A stretch of DNA of 64,000 bases from Escherichia coli (GTDB lineage: Bacteria > Pseudomonadota > Gammaproteobacteria > Enterobacterales > Enterobacteriaceae), in NCBI RefSeq assembly GCF_003334315.1, contig NZ_QOWR01000009.1; one strand, 5' to 3'. A program made the position numbers and the translations under genes. Below are positions 43,848 through 54,264 of the stretch, piece after piece (position 1 is the stretch's first letter; each line of letters starts with the position of its first letter). The notes under the pieces are model-generated. The model worked only from the letters and a program-made list of their open reading frames with translations. It was not told the DNA's origin and ran no database searches.

Positions 43848-44672
43848 ATGACCGAATTTACAACTCTTCTTCAGCAAGGAAACGCCTGGTTCTTCATCCC
43901 CAGCGCCATCTTACTTGGTGCGCTTCATGGCCTGGAACCAGGGCACTCAAAAACGATGATGGCGGCGTTTATCATCGCCATCAAAGGCACCATTAAACAG
44001 GCGGTGATGCTCGGACTGGCAGCAACCATTTCGCATACCGCGGTGGTCTGGTTGATTGCCTTTGGCGGGATGGTGATCAGTAAGCGCTTTACTGCTCAAT
44101 CAGCAGAACCGTGGCTCCAGCTGATTTCCGCAGTGATCATTATTGGCACCGCGTTCTGGATGTTCTGGCGTACCTGGCGCGGCGAACGCAACTGGCTGGA
44201 GAATATGCACGGGCATGATTATGAGCATCATCACCACGATCACGAAGATCACCACGACCATGGACATCATCACCATCACGAACATGGCGAGTATCAGGAT
44301 GCCCATGCACGAGCCCATGCCAATGACATTAAACGACGCTTTGATGGTAGAGAGGTCACCAACTGGCAAATTTTGCTATTTGGCTTAACCGGTGGCCTTA
44401 TCCCCTGCCCGGCAGCAATTACCGTGCTGTTGATATGCATTCAGTTGAAAGCCCTGACACTGGGCGCAACACTGGTCGTCAGTTTCAGCATTGGCCTGGC
44501 GTTAACGCTTGTCACCGTAGGCGTTGGCGCAGCAATCAGCGTTCAGCAGGTCGCAAAACGCTGGAGCGGATTTAACACTCTCGCTAAACGCGCCCCCTAT
44601 TTTTCCAGTCTGTTGATTGGCTTAGTTGGTGTGTATATGGGCGTACATGGCTTCATGGGCATAATGCGATAA
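43848..44672 (+). CDS. rcnA: Nickel/cobalt efflux protein RcnA (274 aa) with His-rich cytoplasmic loop
   Basis: TM segments flanking a His/Asp/Glu-rich loop (HGHDYEHHHHDHEDHHDHGHHHHHEHGEY). Confidence 0.92.
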   Translation: MTEFTTLLQQGNAWFFIPSAILLGALHGLEPGHSKTMMAAFIIAIKGTIKQAVMLGLAATISHTAVVWLIAFGGMVISKRFTAQSAEPWLQLISAVIIIGTAFWMFWRTWRGERNWLENMHGHDYEHHHHDHEDHHDHGHHHHHEHGEYQDAHARAHANDIKRRFDGREVTNWQILLFGLTGGLIPCPAAITVLLICIQLKALTLGATLVVSFSIGLALTLVTVGVGAAISVQQVAKRWSGFNTLAKRAPYFSSLLIGLVGVYMGVHGFMGIMR

Positions 44673-44890
44673 CTCAATCCTTTAGGCTTGCATGTTATCT
44701 TCAGCCCAGGATGATTCTTAAATCAGCTATTTCCGCTGACTCTCTGCTCGCTAAGGATGCTTTTAGGGCATCCTTTCATTTACACTTTTTACGAAATCAT
44801 GGGATCACTAACAAAATATCGCTTGTCAGTTATATTGTATGGCAGGAAAGATATGCGACTGATATTACAGATCCCCAAAGTGGAGAGTTT

Positions 44891-45229
44891 ATGACCATTA
44901 AAAATAAGATGTTGCTGGGTGCGCTTTTGCTGGTTACCAGTGCCGCCTGGGCCGCACCAGCCACCGCGGGTTCGACCAATACCTCGGGAATTTCTAAGTA
45001 TGAGTTAAGCAGTTTCATTGCTGACTTTAAGCATTTCAAACCAGGGGACACCGTACCAGAAATGTACCGTACCGATGAGTACAACATTAAGCAGTGGCAG
45101 TTGCGTAACCTGCCCGCACCTGACGCCGGAACCCACTGGACCTATATGGGTGGCGCGTACGTGTTGATCAGCGACACCGACGGAAAAATCATTAAAGCCT
45201 ACGACGGTGAGATTTTTTATCATCGCTAA
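44891..45229 (+). CDS. rcnB: Periplasmic Ni/Co homeostasis protein RcnB (112 aa; ORF-track start 44711 is an extension)
   Basis: Signal peptide MTIKNKMLLGALLLVTSAAWA. Confidence 0.85.
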   Translation: MTIKNKMLLGALLLVTSAAWAAPATAGSTNTSGISKYELSSFIADFKHFKPGDTVPEMYRTDEYNIKQWQLRNLPAPDAGTHWTYMGGAYVLISDTDGKIIKAYDGEIFYHR

Positions 45230-45254
45230 AAAAAGCCCCCTCGGAGAGAGGGGG
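45230..45254 (-). terminator. Rho-independent terminator after yehA (minus strand), possibly bidirectional
   Basis: CCCCCTC-ggaga-GAGGGGG with a T-run on the minus strand. Confidence 0.6.
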
Positions 45255-45310
45255 AAATGCAGACACCTTATTATTTCTTATTATTAGCCACTTGCTCGTC
45301 TTGCTTGTTA

Positions 45311-46345
45311 TTAGTCGTATTTCACGTTGATTAATGCGGTTGCTTCCAGTGCGCCAGATTTAACTTTGTTTGTATCGTAGACGTAGTAACTGGCTGTTAT
45401 CGGAATTGAAACCGTTGTATCTGTAAGTTTTGACTTTGCCGCAATTTCTTTTAAATTTGTGTATCCTTTACTGCTGTTAGTGATATTTAAAAGTGTGACT
45501 GGCGAACTATTACTTTCAAGAATAAATCCTACGCCATTATCTTCCGCACCTTTCAGTATTGTGTTGCTGTTGGTTAACAAGTCAGAACTTGATAAATACA
45601 CCTGCATTTTCCGTGATGTTTGATTTTGTTGACCTAATAAATTTTTACAACGCAGAATAATATCCCCTTGTTTACTATTTATTGTTGCTTTGTTACCTGT
45701 GGCTGGTAATTGTGAAACGGGAATACTGTCTAAAGTAATTAATAAATCGTCCGGTTTGCAGGTTGTGGTTATCGGGTTGTATGACAATGTCAGATTAAAG
45801 GAATAGACACCTGCATTTTGTGCCAATGCATTTCTGTAGCTATTTACACATGCATCCCATGACTTGCCACCTAATAAACACAGTAGAAATTGTACTGCGG
45901 CACTCCCGCGTGTCGATGATGAAGCACTGGATAATGTTGCAACACCATTAATCATCACTGAACCGCCGCCCCCCGCAGAAACATTCACTTTTGCATTACT
46001 GGCCGCAGGTGTCACCGTTACCGAATAACCATTGGTGAAACTGGTCTGATTATTTGACAACGTGATGTTATTTTTATTGGTCCATTCAAAATGTAAATTT
46101 AATTTAATGGTATCGTTATAAAGTCCAACAATAATATCCGACGGGCTCATAGGGGTGATAGTATTTGTACTTACGCATGACGAATCATTAAAATTATGCT
46201 CATATGTCGCCATTTGTGTTTGAGTAAGTGCAAAACCCCCCTGAACAACCAAGTTGTGCTGAACAGATAACTCACTATAACATGCCGCATAGCTCACAGG
46301 CATAACCATCATCATTAATATAAATAGCATTATGCGAATTTCCAT
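45311..46345 (-). CDS. yehA: Fimbrial adhesin/tip subunit-like protein (344 aa)
   Basis: Signal peptide, Ser/Thr/Asn-rich two-domain fimbrial protein at the distal end of a chaperone-usher operon. Confidence 0.85.
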   Translation of the reverse strand: MEIRIMLFILMMMVMPVSYAACYSELSVQHNLVVQGGFALTQTQMATYEHNFNDSSCVSTNTITPMSPSDIIVGLYNDTIKLNLHFEWTNKNNITLSNNQTSFTNGYSVTVTPAASNAKVNVSAGGGGSVMINGVATLSSASSSTRGSAAVQFLLCLLGGKSWDACVNSYRNALAQNAGVYSFNLTLSYNPITTTCKPDDLLITLDSIPVSQLPATGNKATINSKQGDIILRCKNLLGQQNQTSRKMQVYLSSSDLLTNSNTILKGAEDNGVGFILESNSSPVTLLNITNSSKGYTNLKEIAAKSKLTDTTVSIPITASYYVYDTNKVKSGALEATALINVKYD

Positions 46346-46360
46346 AGAACCACCTGACTA

Positions 46361-48841
46361 TTACTGGCAAATATAATTTCTACTTTCATCAATCTCTTTA
46401 CCGAAGGTGATTGTGCATGAAAGTCCTTGTTGCTTATCAATTGCCACATTAACCGATGGCGGTACTTCATTGGTGCGAATAAATAACTGACTTCCCTGGC
46501 CGACAACGCCAATATTATGACCATGGATATCATTGACTTCATAACCAAACGTTAATGATTGCCCATCTGCTCTTAACGCTTTTATAAACCATGGCTTGCG
46601 CTGATCGGTATCAAAATTAACAAGTACAACCGCGCCGCGATAAGGGGCGGCAATTTTCCGGTTGCCACGTAATTCTGCTTCGCTATCGCTTTGCGACACA
46701 TCCAGCATCAGGTGATTTTCCCGATAAGGTGTCATTCCGTCGTATATCACCACTCCATTACGGTTTGTTGTGCGATATTTTTGCCCATTGACATAAGCAT
46801 CTTTAATTCCTGGCGCATTCATCACAGCAAACGTTTCGGAAAGACGGTTCGCCAGATTAACGCCACCCGACCAGGCGACAATGCCCCCTAAAACACTGGC
46901 TCCAGCCTGTCGATAAGTACTCGACTGACTATAACTGCCATTCACTGTCGCAACCGGCGCGTTCCAGGTCAAATTCGCCCCAGCTGTCGTTTCATTTCCC
47001 TGATGTTGATGACTCAGGTTGACACCATAATTGAACTGATCCCGACTCCCTACTGTTCCTGATAATCCCGTATTATTTGAGGCAAACCCCTGATCATCAA
47101 ACGTCGTTGAGTTAGACATATATATTTGCCGACGAGGCGTCGAAACGTCATCACCCCAATCAAAGGGAATCGATATAAAAATATTAAAACGTTTCTCTTC
47201 ATGATGATTCTCGTCATAAGCCTGGCTTGCCGCGAGGGTATAGCTTATCCGTCGCAGGTTGTTGGAATAACTCAACTGATAATCCTTACTACTGCCGCTA
47301 CGCCCCCAGTAATCTCGCCATAACGTACTTAATGACACAGACCCCCAACCTTCTGGCAATGACTGGCTCATATTGGCGGAAAAGCTATTTTTGCGGCCAA
47401 AATCGTTCTGGTAATAATCGGCAATGTCATAGACATCGTTTTCATCACGGCGATAATTATCTTTATTGTTTGCCCAAACGTGATCGTTAAATGTCCGGTA
47501 ATCACGCGACGAATAACGCCAGGCCGCCAGACCAAAACGCGTCGACGTTTGGCTCACAAATTTGTTGTAGGCAATTTGATAACTTTGCCCGTCAAACACA
47601 TCGCCGTTGTCTTGTTTACTATGCGACTTAGTGGCATCGACGGAAATGGCACCAATGCGTGTATTCCAGCCAGCCCCCAAAGTAAACGCGTAATAATTAT
47701 TCGCGACCATCGAGCCACCATACAGCGTCAATAAATTATTAAAACCATACTGATAACCCGCCTGGACAAAATCACTTTGTTTGCTCGCCCCTTCAATATG
47801 GCTACGACCCGCCGCTAAATCATATTTCGACACGCCGGGTTGCAGCATATTTGGCACCGCTGCATAAGGCACCAGATAGGTGGTTACCGAGCCGTCCGCC
47901 TCTTTCACGCTGACATCAAGATCTGCTCCACCACCGGCCAACTGCAAATCTGTAATCGCGAACGGGCCAGGAGGAACCTCTTTCTGATAAACCACAAAAC
48001 CATTCTGTTCAATAGTTACCAGCGCGTTACTCTGAGCAATCCCCTGCACCCGTGGCGTAAAATTTTGTTTCGAGTTAGGCAACATCTGCATATCACGAAA
48101 CAACCGCACACCTCTGAAGCGAACAGAATCAAAAATATCGCTTGATGTGTACATATCACCCACGCGAAGCGTGCCGAGAAGTTGGGCAAATCCACGTTCC
48201 AGATACAGGGTATTGCTTTTCCACACCCCTGGATTGTTATTTGTTTTACTGAAACTGGCATCAGAATGCAGTTGCCACCCCAGTAAATTTAACCCGCTGT
48301 TAAAACGTACATATGTACTCTTGTTATTACCCGACGCTTTATAGTCGCTGTAATACTGACTCAGATAATAAGAGGTATAAAACGCATTAATACCCCGCTC
48401 CCAGTTTTCCGGTGGAACATAGCCACTTTCCAGTTCTTCCACCCAGGCCTGCGGGACACTGAAATCGAGACGAAAAACCCCGATATCCCAGGTATAGCTC
48501 CCACCCTGAACAAGTTGCTCAAATGTTAAACATTGCTTACCGCTGGCGAAGTTATCGCTATTAATGCCTAACCGCTTGATAACTTCTCTTGATAAACATG
48601 TTTCTTGCGGGTTGTCTTTAACAATAATCTCATATTTCCCGCGCCATTGCTTATTGACATAAATATCGATGTCATACTGCCCCGGTAAGGGTTGATTATC
48701 ATCAAGACGAATATTTGCAACCTGCTGGTCTTTCATTCCACCTATCATAAAATGGGTATCAAAGGTTTCTTCAGCTGCATAAGCTTCAATGCCGAGCAAT
48801 AACGCTACGATTGCTGATGCAAGTGGGGTCATTCTCAACAT
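46361..48841 (-). CDS. yehB: Fimbrial outer-membrane usher (826 aa)
   Basis: PapC/FimD-type usher. Confidence 0.9.
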   Translation of the reverse strand: MLRMTPLASAIVALLLGIEAYAAEETFDTHFMIGGMKDQQVANIRLDDNQPLPGQYDIDIYVNKQWRGKYEIIVKDNPQETCLSREVIKRLGINSDNFASGKQCLTFEQLVQGGSYTWDIGVFRLDFSVPQAWVEELESGYVPPENWERGINAFYTSYYLSQYYSDYKASGNNKSTYVRFNSGLNLLGWQLHSDASFSKTNNNPGVWKSNTLYLERGFAQLLGTLRVGDMYTSSDIFDSVRFRGVRLFRDMQMLPNSKQNFTPRVQGIAQSNALVTIEQNGFVVYQKEVPPGPFAITDLQLAGGGADLDVSVKEADGSVTTYLVPYAAVPNMLQPGVSKYDLAAGRSHIEGASKQSDFVQAGYQYGFNNLLTLYGGSMVANNYYAFTLGAGWNTRIGAISVDATKSHSKQDNGDVFDGQSYQIAYNKFVSQTSTRFGLAAWRYSSRDYRTFNDHVWANNKDNYRRDENDVYDIADYYQNDFGRKNSFSANMSQSLPEGWGSVSLSTLWRDYWGRSGSSKDYQLSYSNNLRRISYTLAASQAYDENHHEEKRFNIFISIPFDWGDDVSTPRRQIYMSNSTTFDDQGFASNNTGLSGTVGSRDQFNYGVNLSHQHQGNETTAGANLTWNAPVATVNGSYSQSSTYRQAGASVLGGIVAWSGGVNLANRLSETFAVMNAPGIKDAYVNGQKYRTTNRNGVVIYDGMTPYRENHLMLDVSQSDSEAELRGNRKIAAPYRGAVVLVNFDTDQRKPWFIKALRADGQSLTFGYEVNDIHGHNIGVVGQGSQLFIRTNEVPPSVNVAIDKQQGLSCTITFGKEIDESRNYICQ

Positions 48842-48856
48842 AGGCAGCTCCTGCAA

Positions 48857-49531
48857 TTAAATTTTGTCACTAATATAGTTGCCATGGTCATCGATAATGG
48901 TCAGATGCCAGTTATTTGCATTATTACTTTTGACATTAACACTCTGACTTTCTAAGGGGGCAATCATAATAGTTTCATAATTGACTTTGACATTATTAGC
49001 TTTGACATCCGAAATCGTCACCCAATTAGCTGAGTCATTTTTTATCACCAAACCATTGCCACTGCGATTTACCAGCAATTTTTTAAATGTCGCTTTATTT
49101 ACCGGAGCAATACCCGCTGGCCGGTAAAACAACTTAATTCTGTTTTGCATCGCAAACTTCAGTGCATTCTTACCTTCTTGCTCTGGACTATTTGGTGGAA
49201 TATCCAGAACATTCAGATAAAAAATGCTTTCTTTATTAGTGGGCAGTTTATTCGGCATAGTTTTGATTTTTACTTGCTGCCCGGAATTTGCCCCTATTTT
49301 TGCCACTGGTGGCGTTAACATGAAAGGAACCTGAATTTTTTCTGGTGGTAATGACGTATCGCCATCATCAATCCACGCCTGCAGCAGCGAAGAACGGTTT
49401 CCCTGGTTCATCAACTGCACCATCACTTCTTTATTTTCTGCCGGGTAAATAATGCGCGTCCCGTAGATAACAATTCCGGCATGTGCAGGAAGGACCATAG
49501 AAAAAATGAGTAAAGATAATAATCCTTTCAT
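48857..49531 (-). CDS. yehC: Periplasmic fimbrial chaperone (224 aa from MKGLLSL; ORF extension to 49576 possible)
   Basis: PapD-like chaperone; strong RBS AAGAGGA before the ATG at 49531. Confidence 0.85.
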   Translation of the reverse strand: MKGLLSLLIFSMVLPAHAGIVIYGTRIIYPAENKEVMVQLMNQGNRSSLLQAWIDDGDTSLPPEKIQVPFMLTPPVAKIGANSGQQVKIKTMPNKLPTNKESIFYLNVLDIPPNSPEQEGKNALKFAMQNRIKLFYRPAGIAPVNKATFKKLLVNRSGNGLVIKNDSANWVTISDVKANNVKVNYETIMIAPLESQSVNVKSNNANNWHLTIIDDHGNYISDKI

Positions 49532-49553
49532 TTTAATTCCTCTTAAATTAAAA

Positions 49554-49574
49554 GGCCGCCATGGGATAGCGGCC
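49554..49574 (-). terminator. Intra-operon hairpin between yehD and yehC (candidate partial terminator/attenuator)
   Basis: GGCCGCC-atgggatagc-GGCC type hairpin followed on the minus strand by T-rich sequence. Confidence 0.4.
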
Positions 49575-49610
49575 ATGTTTATTACCTGGAGAAACTTACA
49601 ATTTTATTTA

Positions 49611-50153
49611 TTAATCCTGCGCCACACGCATAACCAGAGAAGATAACACATCACCTGATTGCACTGAGTTATCTGTCAGTTTCAGGTATTTTGCTTTAAA
49701 CGGAATAGCATATTGACCTTCCGCTGTTTTATAACTCTCAATGTTAAAAGGTGCAGAAACATCCAGGACATCGCTGTTATCACCTAAATAGAGATAGTAA
49801 CCCACGGTATCGTTGCTACTGGCTATCGCCTTATCGTTACCGGTTATTTTATCGTTGGTAATCAACGAGAGTTTTACACCAGCAACTTCTTTCGGGCAGC
49901 TAATTTTTAACATGCTGCTGGTTACACCGACTGCATCATCATAGGTAGAATATTTAGCTTTACCTTCAAAGACACTGGTTGGTACAGTCGGCATATTAAT
50001 ACTTACTGAATCACCACCCGCTTCGAATTTACACGGAGATTCTGCAATATTCCCCTTAATAGTTAATGTTCCGGTATCAACGTCTGCAGCAAATACTCCA
50101 GCGCTCATAAAAAAAGAAGAAAAGACAGCGGCAGCAATAATTGAACGTTTCAT
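49611..50153 (-). CDS. yehD: Major fimbrial subunit (180 aa)
   Basis: Signal peptide plus fimbrillin fold, first gene of the yehDCBA operon. Confidence 0.88.
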   Translation of the reverse strand: MKRSIIAAAVFSSFFMSAGVFAADVDTGTLTIKGNIAESPCKFEAGGDSVSINMPTVPTSVFEGKAKYSTYDDAVGVTSSMLKISCPKEVAGVKLSLITNDKITGNDKAIASSNDTVGYYLYLGDNSDVLDVSAPFNIESYKTAEGQYAIPFKAKYLKLTDNSVQSGDVLSSLVMRVAQD

Positions 50154-50380
50154 AATATGTTCCTTAATAAAATTTATTTTTGGTTGTTAAGAGTCTGTAT
50201 CTCTTGGAAACAAATTTCTCACATCAAAAAAGTTGCCGCAATGTAAACACATTGTTTTATTGATTTAAAAAAAATTAACAATTGCAATATAAATACAACA
50301 AATATTTAAGAGTATTAACTATTTATCGCATCTATCAATTAATGTAGATTTATGTAAATGGTATTGTTGATATCAATAAA

Positions 50381-50416
50381 AAAGCCGAAATCATTTATAT
50401 AAATGATTTCGGCTTT
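50381..50416 (-). terminator. Rho-independent terminator after yehE (perfect 18-bp inverted repeat)
   Basis: AAAGCCGAAATCATTTAT / ATAAATGATTTCGGCTTT, with a T-run on the minus strand. Confidence 0.7.
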
Positions 50417-50445
50417 CTAAATGCAATTAAAATCAGGTTGCCAAA

Positions 50446-50727
50446 TTAATCGTAGCGATTTAACACGATTCGACGTTTGCTATCGCTACCTGCAACAACC
50501 ACTTCTGTCGTTACACCTTTGACGGGCGAAGAAAACAGATGACGGGTGTCAACATTATACGTTAACTGACCACAATGCTGTTGAGGTTGACCATTAACCA
50601 TAGCCATACTGCATGTTGGGGGACTGATCCTGCCATTAATCGCTAATGTGGCAGTCTCTGAAGAGAATGCGGGAGAAGCCAATCCATAGGCAAGAAAAAT
50701 AATTCCTGACAGCCAATACTTATTCAT
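50446..50727 (-). CDS. yehE: Small secreted protein YehE (93 aa)
   Basis: Signal peptide MNKYWLSGIIFLAYGLASPAFS. Confidence 0.8.
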   Translation of the reverse strand: MNKYWLSGIIFLAYGLASPAFSSETATLAINGRISPPTCSMAMVNGQPQQHCGQLTYNVDTRHLFSSPVKGVTTEVVVAGSDSKRRIVLNRYD

Positions 50728-50989
50728 TGAACGTTATCCCTGTAGTAAAGGTTATGCCTGGATAGAATGAGTGCATAACAAACTATAGCTGTACATCCAC
50801 TACACAGCCACGAAGGATGATAATGAAGCATTGCCTGTATGATCAATCGACTTTGTAGAGTTTCGGACGAAGGTCCGCAGAATATTCGCAGTATTAAATA
50901 AGTGTTCATTAATGCGGCAAAAACTAATACACCGCATCAATGTAACATCTCTGCGGTGTATGAAGAATAACCAGAATGGTTAATAGGCG

Positions 50990-52099
50990 TTAGACCGCGC
51001 GGAAGGAAATCTCGCCTGGAATGACTTCACCCTGCCAGTAGAGCTGAGCTGCAACGCGGTCAGCCAGCTGGCGGTAGATAGCGGTAAATTCGCTCTCCGG
51101 ACGGCTGATAACCGTTGGCGTACCTTTATCGAGATCCTCACGTAAGGAGATGTGTAACGGCATCTGCCCCAGCAGCTGTGTATGGTATTTTTCAGCCAGT
51201 TTCTCTGCACCACCGGTACCGAAAATCGGTTCATGGTGACCACAGTTACTGCAAATATGCACACTCATGTTCTCGACAATACCGAGCACCGGAACCTCGA
51301 CTTTCTCGAACATCACAATGCCTTTTTTCGCATCGATCAGCGCGATGTCCTGCGGGGTGGTGACCACGACTGCACCGGTTACTGGAATGTTTTGCGCCAG
51401 CGTCAATTGAATGTCACCGGTGCCTGGCGGCATATCAAGCACCAGATAGTCGAGATCCGGCCACAAGGTTTCCTGCAACATCTGCATTAACGCCTTGCTC
51501 GCCATCGGTCCACGCCACACCATCGCATTGTCGTCAGTGACCAGATAACCAATTGAATTGGTTGCCAGGCCATGAGACATAATCGGTGCCATATGGGTAC
51601 CGTCCGGCGAAGTTGGACGCTGATTTTCTGCGCCCAACATTGTTGGGATTGATGGGCCGTAGATATCGGCGTCCAGAATGCCGACTTTCGCCCCTTCTGC
51701 CGCCAGCGCCAGTGCCAGGTTTACCGCCGTGGACGATTTACCCACGCCGCCTTTACCGGAACTCACCGCGATAATGTTCTTCACACCGTTAATTCCCGGC
51801 TGATTCTTCACGCGTTTCAGAGTGGCTATGTTATACGACAGTTTCCAGTCGATAGCTTTCGCCCCGGTGATGCGCAGCAGTTCGGCGCTACATTGCTCTT
51901 TTAACTCTTCGAACGCGCTATGCCAGACAAACGGCATAACCAGTTCCACATGCAACGTGTCGTCCATCCAGGCGACATGGTGCAACGCTTTCAGCGTGGT
52001 GAGGTTATGCTTCAGGGTTGGGTGCTGAAAATTGGCCAGTGTCCCGGCGACCATTGCGCGCAAGGCTTCTGGTGATTTGGCCTGGGATTGTTCGTTCAT
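50990..52099 (-). CDS. mrp: Fe-S cluster carrier ATPase Mrp/ApbC (369 aa; ORF-track start 52129 is an extension)
   Basis: P-loop GKGGVGKSS and CxxC (CSNCGHHE) of the Mrp/NBP35 family. Confidence 0.92.
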   Translation of the reverse strand: MNEQSQAKSPEALRAMVAGTLANFQHPTLKHNLTTLKALHHVAWMDDTLHVELVMPFVWHSAFEELKEQCSAELLRITGAKAIDWKLSYNIATLKRVKNQPGINGVKNIIAVSSGKGGVGKSSTAVNLALALAAEGAKVGILDADIYGPSIPTMLGAENQRPTSPDGTHMAPIMSHGLATNSIGYLVTDDNAMVWRGPMASKALMQMLQETLWPDLDYLVLDMPPGTGDIQLTLAQNIPVTGAVVVTTPQDIALIDAKKGIVMFEKVEVPVLGIVENMSVHICSNCGHHEPIFGTGGAEKLAEKYHTQLLGQMPLHISLREDLDKGTPTVISRPESEFTAIYRQLADRVAAQLYWQGEVIPGEISFRAV

Positions 52100-52230
52100 C
52101 CCGACTCCTTTTTTGTATAGATAAACCATCAGCTGATAGTTTACCTGAAGAATATAGAGAAGTACTTACTTAACATTTTCCCATTTGGTACTATCTAACC
52201 CCTTTTCACTATTAAGAAGTAATGCCTACT

Positions 52231-54264
52231 ATGACTCAAGTCGCGAAGAAAATTCTGGTGACGTGCGCACTGCCGTACGCTAACGGCTCAATCCACCTCG
52301 GCCATATGCTGGAGCACATCCAGGCTGATGTCTGGGTCCGTTACCAGCGAATGCGCGGCCACGAGGTCAACTTCATCTGCGCCGACGATGCCCACGGTAC
52401 ACCGATCATGCTGAAAGCTCAGCAGCTTGGTATCACCCCGGAGCAGATGATTGGCGAAATGAGTCAGGAGCATCAGACTGATTTCGCAGGCTTTAACATC
52501 AGCTATGACAACTATCACTCGACGCACAGCGAAGAGAACCGCCAGTTGTCAGAACTTATCTACTCTCGCCTGAAAGAGAACGGTTTTATTAAAAACCGCA
52601 CCATCTCTCAGCTGTACGATCCGGAAAAAGGCATGTTCCTGCCGGACCGTTTTGTGAAAGGCACCTGCCCGAAATGTAAATCCCCGGATCAATACGGCGA
52701 TAACTGCGAAGTCTGCGGCGCGACCTACAGCCCGACTGAATTGATCGAGCCGAAATCGGTGGTTTCTGGCGCTACGCCGGTAATGCGTGATTCTGAACAC
52801 TTCTTCTTTGATCTGCCCTCTTTCAGCGAAATGTTGCAGGCATGGACCCGCAGCGGTGCGTTGCAGGAGCAGGTGGCAAATAAAATGCAGGAGTGGTTTG
52901 AATCCGGCCTGCAACAGTGGGATATCTCCCGCGACGCGCCATACTTTGGTTTTGAAATTCCGAACGCGCCGGGCAAATATTTCTACGTCTGGCTGGACGC
53001 ACCGATTGGCTACATGGGTTCTTTCAAGAATCTGTGCGACAAGCGCGGCGACAGCGTAAGCTTCGATGAATACTGGAAGAAAGACTCCACCGCCGAACTG
53101 TACCACTTCATCGGTAAAGATATCGTTTACTTCCACAGCCTGTTCTGGCCTGCCATGCTGGAAGGCAGCAACTTCCGCAAGCCGACCAACCTGTTTGTTC
53201 ATGGCTATGTGACGGTGAACGGCGCGAAGATGTCCAAGTCTCGCGGCACCTTTATTAAAGCCAGCACCTGGCTGAATCATTTTGACGCTGACAGCCTGCG
53301 TTACTACTACACTGCGAAACTCTCTTCGCGCATTGATGATATCGATCTCAACCTGGAGGATTTCGTTCAGCGCGTGAATGCCGATATCGTTAACAAAGTG
53401 GTTAACCTGGCCTCCCGTAACGCGGGCTTTATCAACAAACGTTTTGACGGCGTGCTGGCAAACGAACTGGCTGACCCGCAGTTGTACAAAACCTTCACTG
53501 ATGCCGCTGAAGTGATTGGTGAAGCGTGGGAAAGCCGTGAATTTGGTAAAGCTGTGCGCGAAATCATGGCGCTGGCTGATCTGGCTAACCGCTATGTCGA
53601 TGAACAGGCTCCGTGGGTAGTCGCAAAACAGGAAGGTCGCGATGCTGACCTGCAGGCGATTTGCTCAATGGGCATCAACCTGTTCCGCGTGCTGATGACT
53701 TACCTGAAGCCGGTACTGCCGAAACTGACCGAGCGTGCAGAAGCCTTCCTCAATACGGAACTGACCTGGGATGGTATCCAGCAACCGCTGCTGGGCCACA
53801 AAGTGAATCCGTTCAAGGCGCTGTATAACCGCATCGATATGAAACAGGTTGAAGCTCTGGTGGAAGCCTCTAAAGAAGAAGTGAAAGCAGCTGCCGCGCC
53901 AGTTACTGGCCCACTGGCAGATGATCCGATTCAGGAAACCATCACCTTTGACGACTTCGCCAAAGTTGACCTGCGCGTAGCGCTGATCGAAAACGCAGAG
54001 TTTGTTGAAGGTTCTGACAAACTGCTGCGCCTGACACTGGATCTCGGCGGTGAAAAACGCAATGTCTTCTCCGGTATTCGTTCTGCCTACCCGGATCCGC
54101 AGGCACTGATTGGTCGTCACACCATTATGGTGGCTAACCTGGCACCACGTAAAATGCGCTTTGGAATCTCCGAAGGCATGGTGATGGCTGCCGGTCCAGG
54201 CGGGAAAGATATCTTCCTGCTAAGCCCGGATGCTGGTGCTAAACCGGGTCATCAGGTGAAATAA
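52231..54264 (+). CDS. metG: Methionyl-tRNA synthetase (677 aa)
   Basis: HIGH motif ([16 protein letters not shown]), KMSKS motif, Zn knuckle and C-terminal tRNA-binding domain. Confidence 0.95.

What the first reader, a model, noticed from the sequence alone, without database searches (positions are those of the whole stretch)
45311..50727. AT-rich chaperone-usher fimbrial cluster with an internal hairpin after the major subunit
The yehDCBA operon and yehE are markedly AT-rich relative to their neighbours, consistent with horizontal acquisition and H-NS silencing. The ~225-bp AT-rich yehD upstream region (50154-50380) and the hairpin at 49554-49574 between yehD and yehC suggest stoichiometry control by partial termination.
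Basis: inference. Interest (0 to 1): 0.3.

Follow-up and report, generated by a model that had tools for sequence, protein, structure and literature searches.

The report
Stem-loop after the yehD pilin gene
This is the known, H-NS-silenced E. coli yeh fimbrial operon, and the hairpin after its main pilin gene is a real, conserved example of the stem-loops that fimbrial operons use to make more pilin than assembly proteins, so it is ordinary.

Summary
Window 45311-50727 (minus strand) is E. coli yehE plus yehDCBA. Its GC is 41.4% against 51.5% for the rest of the window. The 227 bp upstream of yehD has 22.5% GC. A 9-bp GC-rich hairpin lies exactly at 49574-49554, followed by UUUUAAUUU.

H-NS silencing of yeh is already published. 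"Horizontal acquisition" holds only in an ancient sense. The cluster sits between apbC and rcnB in Escherichia, Citrobacter and Salmonella arizonae, and is found in 5421 of 5426 complete E. coli genomes.

The hairpin is functional rather than chance. All 16 distinct orthologous yehD-yehC spacers carry a GC-rich stem-loop, although the spacers share only 40-49% sequence identity. The U tract is not conserved: the O157:H7-type E. coli allele and most Citrobacter/Salmonella orthologues lack it. So "partial terminator" fits this K-12-type allele, while the conserved role is more likely protection of the yehD mRNA 3' end.

Five other K-12 chaperone-usher operons have similar hairpins, so this is an uncharacterised member of a textbook class. 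Interest is low.

Side observations: a strongly conserved 165-nt yehD leader/promoter block, and a pilin-like N-terminus in YehE.

The parts
50446..50727 (-). yehE: small secreted DUF2574 protein and its own transcription unit.
   Evidence: RefSeq annotation. Pfam PF10836, E = 1.8e-52. Adjacent to the operon in nearly all orthologous loci.
50378..50418 (-). Canonical intrinsic terminator after yehE: an 18-pair hairpin plus a U6 tract.
   Evidence: Energy -23.6 kcal/mol, z = -5.05. Hairpin plus U tract are kept in all 13 orthologues that have a co-directional yehE, with compensatory changes in the lower stem.
50154..50318 (-). Conserved proximal promoter/leader block upstream of yehD. It lies within the 292-nt yehE-yehD spacer, which has 24% GC.
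   Evidence: 75-78% nucleotide identity to Citrobacter and S. arizonae, against 53-56% for the mature yehD coding part. No RNA covariation was detected.
49611..50153 (-). yehD, the major fimbrial subunit.
   Evidence: Annotation. Best NCBIfam match is NF011766, fimbrial protein YehD, at 113 bits, below the curated 136-bit cutoff.
49554..49574 (-). GC-rich stem-loop in the yehD-yehC spacer. This is the reported hairpin.
49545..49553 (-). Interrupted U tract UUUUAAUUU directly 3' of the stem. It is specific to the K-12-type allele.
   Evidence: Tail score nT = 3.67 against 0.25 in the O157-type allele.
49539..49544 (-). yehC Shine-Dalgarno sequence AAGAGG, 7 nt before the ATG at 49531. The stem ends 22 nt before that ATG.
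   Evidence: Sequence. The spacing from stem end to ATG is 19-26 nt in 14 of 16 orthologues.
49588..49595 (-). Pyrimidine tract GUUUCUCC that can pair with the yehC Shine-Dalgarno in the minimum-energy fold. A possible outer helix, not supported by covariation.
   Evidence: for the fold; 90% of cells paired but no compensatory change, and the tract is present only in Escherichia.
48857..49531 (-). yehC, the periplasmic chaperone.
46361..48841 (-). yehB, the outer-membrane usher.
   Evidence: NF011763 at 1749.6 bits.
45311..46345 (-). yehA, a putative tip adhesin-like subunit.
   Evidence: NF011788 at 682.6 bits.
45228..45254 (-). Operon-end terminator after yehA: CCCCCUCUCUCCGAGGGGG followed by C and U7.

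Best explanation
The hairpin is the post-pilin intercistronic stem-loop of a chaperone-usher operon. It makes yehD (needed in many copies per fimbria) more highly expressed than yehC, yehB and yehA.

Transcription starts upstream of yehD. That promoter is normally silenced by H-NS and can be counter-silenced, for example by SlyA. In this K-12-type allele the 9-bp GC-rich stem followed by UUUUAAUUU has the anatomy of a Rho-independent terminator. A fraction of polymerases should therefore stop 36-60 nt after the yehD stop codon, and the rest read through into yehCBA.

Whether the 3' end arises by termination or by endonuclease cleavage of the AU-rich spacer, the stem-loop then blocks 3'-to-5' exonucleases. 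This leaves a stable monocistronic yehD mRNA.

Shown here: the structure, its stability, its position, its retention through complete sequence turnover, and the terminator-like tail in this allele. Inferred: actual termination, its efficiency, and the stabilising effect.
For: The hairpin and tail are at the stated coordinates.

All 16 distinct orthologous yehD-yehC spacers carry a 7-13-pair GC-rich stem-loop of -12.5 to -19.1 kcal/mol. The spacers themselves are only 40-49% identical to the window. There are at least 7 unrelated stem sequences, giving a combined p of about 2e-7.

Within Escherichia the helix is 98% paired, with two G-C to A-U compensatory pairs.

The class A hairpin plus tail scores +14.7 on a d'Aubenton-Carafa-type yardstick. 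That is comparable with the operon's flanking terminators (yehE +17, yehA +5.6).

It sits in the only sizeable spacer in the operon. The gene coordinates leave only about 15 nt at yehC-yehB and yehB-yehA.

Five further K-12 chaperone-usher operons (elf, yad, yra, ybg, yfc) have a comparable hairpin directly after the first subunit gene.

Literature: rho-independent stem-loops 3' of the subunit gene are described as a general device of fimbrial clusters (PMC3373541). papA mRNA is stabilised by terminal structures (PMC5927463). Mutating or deleting the CS6 cssB-cssC stem-loop (stem GGCCGC) strongly lowers CS6 protein (PMC8923064).
Against: There is no experimental 3' end. yehD, yehC and yehE do not occur in the held supplementary tables of the E. 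coli Term-seq study PMC7815308, as expected for a silent operon.

The U tract is interrupted (U4AAU3). It is absent in the O157:H7-type E. coli allele (about 320-370 of roughly 5300 genomes) and in most Citrobacter and Salmonella orthologues, which score -18 to -44. Intrinsic termination therefore cannot be the conserved function.

By contrast, the yehE terminator keeps its U tract in all 13 orthologues.

The terminator score formula was recalled from memory and serves only as a relative yardstick.
Confidence: 0.65

Rival explanations
1. The hairpin is purely an RNA-stability element. It blocks exonucleases after RNase E cleavage or Rho-dependent termination but causes no appreciable intrinsic termination. 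The U-rich tail in this allele is incidental, since the spacer is AT-rich anyway.
For: The stem-loop is kept in every orthologue, but the U tract is present in only a minority. Post-pilin hairpins in other K-12 operons also mostly have poor tails. The fimA-fimI hairpin has no U tract and is released by RNase E (PMC9723502). There are papA and CFA/I precedents for differential decay.
Against: All class A E. coli alleles sampled keep UUUUAA plus a U-rich run directly after the stem. The class A site scores like the flanking bona fide-looking terminators.
Confidence: 0.2
2. The hairpin is part of a translational control structure for yehC. Together with the upstream GUUUCUCC tract it forms an extended fold that sequesters the yehC Shine-Dalgarno. 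Alternatively, it is a 5' stabiliser of processed yehCBA mRNA.
For: The minimum-energy fold pairs GUUUCUCC with the Shine-Dalgarno. The stem ends 19-26 nt before the yehC ATG in 14 of 16 orthologues.
Against: The outer helix shows no compensatory change, is found only in Escherichia, and is explained by conservation of the Shine-Dalgarno and a U-run. The Citrobacter and Salmonella spacers (51-54 nt) have no room for it. The constant spacing is also what a minimal spacer would give. Each hairpin sequence travels with its yehD allele rather than with yehC.
Confidence: 0.05
3. The stem-loop is the core of a stable 3'UTR-derived small RNA, analogous to FimR2 from the fimA-fimI spacer, with a trans-acting role.
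For: It occupies the same position as FimR2, which is annotated in K-12 and shown to be RNase E-processed and functional (PMC9723502). AU-rich flanks suit RNase E.
Against: There is no sequence conservation of the loop or flanks across orthologues. There is no GGA motif in the loop and no similarity to FimR2. No Rfam family matches at E <= 1 apart from three chance-level hits, far below their gathering scores, at the yehE terminator. The operon is normally silent.
Confidence: 0.05
4. It is a chance inverted repeat with no function.
For: Terminator-like pattern matches are not enriched in the region (9 against 8.3 expected).
Against: Structure is retained in 16 of 16 orthologous spacers through complete sequence turnover and through compensatory changes.
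Confidence: 0.02

Closest known systems
Stem-loops 3' of the major-subunit gene in chaperone-usher operons (pap papA terminator/stabiliser, CFA/I cfaAB, ETEC CS6 cssB-cssC hairpin)
   Same: Position directly after the pilin gene and before the chaperone gene. A GC-rich stem of 6-10 bp. The presumed effect is more pilin than assembly proteins. The CS6 stem even shares the half-stem GGCCGC (PMC8923064). The principle is stated generally in PMC3373541, and the papA mechanism in PMC5927463.
   Different: The yeh hairpin has never been tested experimentally, as far as the searched literature shows. In pap the stabilised mRNA is also defined by an RNase E cut upstream of papA, and nothing comparable is known for yehD.
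Rho-independent (intrinsic) terminators, including leaky intra-operon ones
   Same: A GC-rich hairpin followed within 0-1 nt by a U-rich run (6 U in the first 8). An A-rich stretch lies upstream. The score is comparable with the operon's flanking terminators.
   Different: The U tract is interrupted. It is not conserved in the second E. coli allele or in other genera, unlike the neighbouring yehE terminator.
FimR2, the RNase E-processed sRNA from the fimA-fimI spacer of type 1 fimbriae
   Same: The same genomic position in a paralogous operon: a hairpin right after the major pilin gene.
   Different: No sequence similarity, no GGA/CsrA motif, and no evidence of a stable RNA species.
H-NS-silenced cryptic fimbrial operons of E. 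coli K-12 (elf/ycb, sfm, yad, yeh, yra, ybg, yfc; Korea et al. 2010)
   Same: This is one of them. It is AT-rich, H-NS-bound and H-NS-repressed, and SlyA-inducible (PMC5797941).
   Different: Nothing differs. The locus is the already described yeh operon (Salmonella counterpart peg, according to PMC3373541).

Membership tests
Chaperone-usher fimbrial operon | Encodes a pilin subunit, a PapD-like periplasmic chaperone, an outer-membrane usher and a tip/adhesin subunit in one co-directional cluster. | tested here: met
   NCBIfam hits for usher (1749.6 bits), chaperone and YehA-type adhesin (682.6 bits); the YehD pilin hit (113 bits) is below the curated cutoff. RefSeq annotation.
Rho-independent terminator | A stable GC-rich stem-loop downstream of a stop codon. 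| tested here: met
   9 pairs, 6 of them G-C, -15.3 kcal/mol, z = -3.8, 36 nt after the yehD stop.
Rho-independent terminator | A U-rich tract immediately 3' of the stem. | tested here: inconclusive
   UUUUAAUUU has 6 U in the first 8 positions but is interrupted. The yardstick score is positive, +14.7. The formula was recalled from memory.
Rho-independent terminator | Hairpin and U tract are conserved together in orthologues. | tested here: not met
   The stem is kept in 16 of 16 orthologues. The U tract is present only in E. coli class A, L010 and L011. Class B and most Citrobacter/Salmonella orthologues score -18 to -44. The neighbouring yehE terminator keeps its U tract in 13 of 13.
Rho-independent terminator | RNA 3' ends mapped at the U tract. 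| not testable with these tools
   No yehD, yehC or yehE entries occur in the held supplements of PMC7815308. No supplements are held for PMC6061677.
Intercistronic mRNA-stabilising stem-loop (selective processing and stabilisation) | A stable stem-loop at the 3' side of the cistron needed in excess, with the structure kept while the sequence drifts. | tested here: met
   and compensatory pairs.
Intercistronic mRNA-stabilising stem-loop (selective processing and stabilisation) | The upstream segment decays more slowly than the downstream segment, and this depends on the stem. | not testable with these tools
   Needs rifampicin decay experiments.
H-NS-silenced, horizontally acquired island | Markedly lower GC than the flanking core genes. 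| tested here: met
   41.4% against 51.5%; GC3 0.33-0.44 against 0.62.
H-NS-silenced, horizontally acquired island | H-NS occupancy and derepression without H-NS. | not testable with these tools
   From the literature only: PMC5797941 Table 2 (Kahramanoglou and Oshima ChIP sets; Korea et al. 2010), and the EPOD preprint. A scan for the H-NS motif was uninformative.
H-NS-silenced, horizontally acquired island | Patchy distribution or a lineage-specific insertion site. | tested here: not met
   Same apbC/metG ... rcnB context in Escherichia, Citrobacter and S. arizonae. Present in 5421 of 5426 E. coli genomes.
FimR2-like 3'UTR sRNA | Sequence or motif similarity to FimR2 (GGA in the loop and in the single-stranded region). 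| tested here: not met
   The loops are CCC, AUUC, UUG and others. There is no similarity to the FimR2 sequence.

The most novel reading that the evidence does not exclude
The post-pilin stem-loop is not primarily a terminator. Instead it is the 3' module of an exchangeable pilin cassette: each yehD allele carries its own unrelated hairpin. On this reading the hairpin is released, like FimR2 from fimA-fimI, as a stable processed RNA with a role of its own, which would make 'pilin 3'UTR hairpin RNAs' a general feature of chaperone-usher operons.
Probability: 0.07. Interest if true: 0.5.

Novelty: new member of a known kind. Interest (0 to 1): 0.15.

Why it matters
It matters little beyond annotation. 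The yeh operon, its AT-richness and its H-NS silencing are already described. Stem-loops after the major pilin gene are a textbook way of setting subunit stoichiometry.

The useful increments are three:
- This particular hairpin is under selection as a structure.
- E. coli carries two alleles, one with and one without a U tract. They form a natural pair for separating termination from RNA stabilisation.
- The yehD leader/promoter and the adjacent yehE gene are more conserved than the pilin itself.

Tried and rejected
- **Rfam scan** of 44000-53000 at E <= 1. Only three chance-level hits to eukaryotic families, at the yehE terminator.
- **H-NS high-affinity motif** TCGATAAATT with 2 mismatches. 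85 matches against 65 +/- 8 expected over the whole window, so it is not informative for this locus.
- **Outer helix** pairing GUUUCUCC with the yehC Shine-Dalgarno. No covariation, and found only in Escherichia.
- **Structured RNA in the conserved yehD leader.** The RNAalifold covariation term is -0.07 with 0 compensatory pairs. A 21-codon ORF in the leader (read from the sequence) is not conserved in other loci.
- **Invertible, fim-like switch** upstream of yehD. No flanking inverted repeats of that kind. No tandem repeats of note.
- **Experimental 3' ends.** No yeh entries in the held Term-seq supplements.
- **Promoter consensus scan.** Fewer hits than in shuffles (13 against 18.5), so no promoter could be assigned.
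Full report
**What is there.** The span 45311-50727 on the minus strand encodes yehE (50446-50727), yehD (49611-50153), yehC (48857-49531), yehB (46361-48841) and yehA (45311-46345). It is 99.6% identical to E. coli K-12 MG1655 and 99.9% to strain HS30-1. NCBIfam places yehB, yehC and yehA as usher, chaperone and adhesin-like subunit. YehD's best match is the YehD pilin family, at 113 bits, below the curated 136-bit cutoff. YehE is the Pfam family DUF2574. The flanking genes are rcnB on one side and apbC and metG on the other. The longest ORF for yehC starts at an ATG at 49576, inside the hairpin. The annotated start at 49531 is the real one: it has an AAGAGG Shine-Dalgarno, the signal peptide begins there, and all orthologues start there.

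**Composition.** The span has 41.4% GC against 51.5% for the rest of the window, and it is the lowest-GC 5.4-kb stretch in the 64 kb. GC3 is 0.33-0.44 in the yeh genes against 0.62 in apbC and metG.

**H-NS and horizontal transfer.** H-NS silencing is already in the literature. PMC5797941 lists yehDCBA as H-NS-associated in the Kahramanoglou and Oshima data sets. It reports a 3.6-fold rise on SlyA overproduction, an overlap with a GIST-predicted island, and repression by H-NS according to Korea et al. 2010. A preprint places the locus in a static silenced protein-occupancy domain.

Recent horizontal acquisition is not supported. The cluster is found in 5421 of 5426 complete E. coli genomes. 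In Escherichia clades, E. albertii, several Citrobacter species and Salmonella enterica subsp. arizonae it lies in the same metG/apbC ... rcnB context. In those genomes it shows the same GC deficit, 41-46% against 52-55% in the flanks. PMC3373541 also treats yeh as the positional orthologue of a Salmonella cluster. The low GC is thus an old, maintained property of the locus.

**The hairpin.** GGCCGCUAUCCCAUGGCGGCC lies at 49574-49554, starting 36 nt after the yehD stop codon. It is followed by UUUUAAUUU, then the yehC Shine-Dalgarno, and it ends 22 nt before the yehC ATG. It folds at -15.3 kcal/mol with z = -3.8. A pattern match alone is no better than chance in this region (9 found, 8.3 expected), so I tested conservation.

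**Conservation of the hairpin.**
- I collected fifteen orthologous loci from other species and six further E. coli alleles. They give 16 distinct yehD-yehC spacers.
- Every spacer contains a 7-13-pair GC-rich stem-loop of -12.5 to -19.1 kcal/mol.
- The spacers of the other genera are only 40-49% identical to the window, which amounts to no sequence conservation. For comparison, yehB is 72-77% identical.
- At least seven unrelated stem sequences occur. Fisher's combination of their shuffle tests gives p of about 2e-7.
- Within Escherichia the helix is 98% paired, with two G-C to A-U double changes.
- Loop sequences are not conserved, which argues against a sequence-specific ligand.
- Each hairpin type goes with a particular YehD type. 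The stem-loop therefore behaves as the 3' end of the pilin gene.

**Terminator or stabiliser.** I used a d'Aubenton-Carafa-type score, recalled from memory, as a relative yardstick only.
- The window's hairpin plus tail scores +14.7. This is in the range of the canonical-looking terminators after yehE (+17) and yehA (+5.6).
- The O157:H7-type E. coli allele has the tail GCAUAAAUAU. It is carried by about 320-370 of roughly 5300 genomes.
- That allele, E. albertii, and most Citrobacter and Salmonella orthologues score -18 to -44 because they lack a U tract.
- By contrast, the terminator after yehE keeps its U tract in all 13 orthologues, with compensatory changes in the lower stem.

The conserved element is therefore the stem-loop, not a complete intrinsic terminator. 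My best reading is this. In the K-12-type allele the site probably terminates a fraction of transcripts. In all alleles the stem protects the 3' end of the yehD segment from exonucleases. Either way, more pilin message results than chaperone, usher or adhesin message. Termination and stabilisation are inferred, not shown. The held Term-seq supplements contain no yeh entries.

**Context.** The same architecture is seen in K-12's other cryptic chaperone-usher operons. elfA-elfD, yadN-yadV, yraH-yraI, ybgD-ybgQ and yfcV-yfcU each have a stem-loop of -12 to -23 kcal/mol right after the first subunit gene, mostly with weak tails. In fim, the corresponding spacer holds the annotated sRNA FimR2, which is cut out by RNase E and acts on CsrA and on mRNAs (PMC9723502).

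The literature states the principle explicitly (PMC3373541). It also gives experimental examples in papA (PMC5927463) and in CS6, where destroying a GGCCGC stem between cssB and cssC strongly lowers CS6 protein (PMC8923064). The yeh hairpin is thus an uncharacterised member of a well-known class.

**Rivals.**
- A stability-only element is the main alternative.
- A role in yehC translation through pairing of GUUUCUCC with the Shine-Dalgarno appears in the minimum-energy fold. It has no covariation and exists only in Escherichia.
- A FimR2-like sRNA is not excluded, but it has no positive support.
- Chance is excluded by the comparative data.

**Other things seen.**
- The 165 nt proximal to the yehD ATG are 75-78% identical between E. 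coli and Citrobacter or Salmonella. The yehD signal-peptide codons are 78-87% identical. The mature pilin part is only 53-56% identical.
- This pattern points to a conserved promoter/leader joined to a replaceable pilin cassette. No RNA covariation was found in the leader, and there is no invertible switch.
- YehE's first 46 residues (signal peptide plus TATLTINGxIxxPTC) match the pilin N-terminal profile with 96.6% hhalign probability. The rest is a small beta domain with no fold match.
- The YehE family is tiny: 33 representatives among 1.8 billion proteins.

**Verdict.** The feature is ordinary and largely already explained, so interest is low.

Noticed in passing
window 50378-50418 (- strand); L002-L016 equivalents: In the yehE terminator the lower stem varies through compensatory changes. 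The upper stem and loop, AUCAUU-N3-AUGAAUGAU (a DNA palindrome ATCATT..AATGAT), are conserved from E. coli to Citrobacter and S. arizonae. That is the reverse of what is usual for terminators, and it may mark a protein- or RNA-binding site.
   Followed up: partly
window 50154-50318 (- strand): The 165 nt just upstream of the yehD ATG are conserved across genera (75-78% identity), with invariant blocks such as GTTTACATTGCGG and TTTAAATCAA. yehD itself is hypervariable. The yehE-yehD spacer length is constant at 277-294 nt. No promoter or RNA structure could be assigned.
   Followed up: partly
window 50446-50727 (yehE): YehE (DUF2574) has an N-terminus resembling a pilin's signal peptide plus donor-strand region (hhalign 96.6%). 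It has two invariant cysteines and a C-terminal ...RYD with a penultimate Tyr, like pilins. It is only about 70 residues when mature and has no detectable fold relative. It is almost always next to the yeh operon, and the family is very small.
   Followed up: partly
window 49611-50153 and 45311-46345; loci L007-L016: YehD (33-39% amino-acid identity) and YehA (27% or undetectable) are replaced between genera, while YehB (72-83%) and YehC (61-76%) are kept. The YehD signal peptide stays nearly identical. This looks like cassette-type replacement of the exposed subunits. E. coli itself has two alleles of the whole cluster, K-12 type and O157:H7 type, about 85% identical.
   Followed up: partly
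window 49538: This strain has A where K-12 and all other sampled alleles have C, in the spacer after the yehC Shine-Dalgarno (AAGAGGAAUU against AAGAGGCAUU). The change extends the purine run and alters which register pairs with the upstream pyrimidine tract.
   Followed up: no
L023 (NC_000913.3 4543674-4543708): K-12 RefSeq annotates the sRNA FimR2 in the fimA-fimI spacer, the position equivalent to the yeh hairpin. Its hairpin also lacks a U tract.
   Followed up: yes
PMC8923064 (ETEC CS6 operon): The experimentally studied cssB-cssC intergenic stem uses the same half-stem GGCCGC as the yeh class A hairpin. This is probably coincidence, and the sequences were not compared.
   Followed up: no
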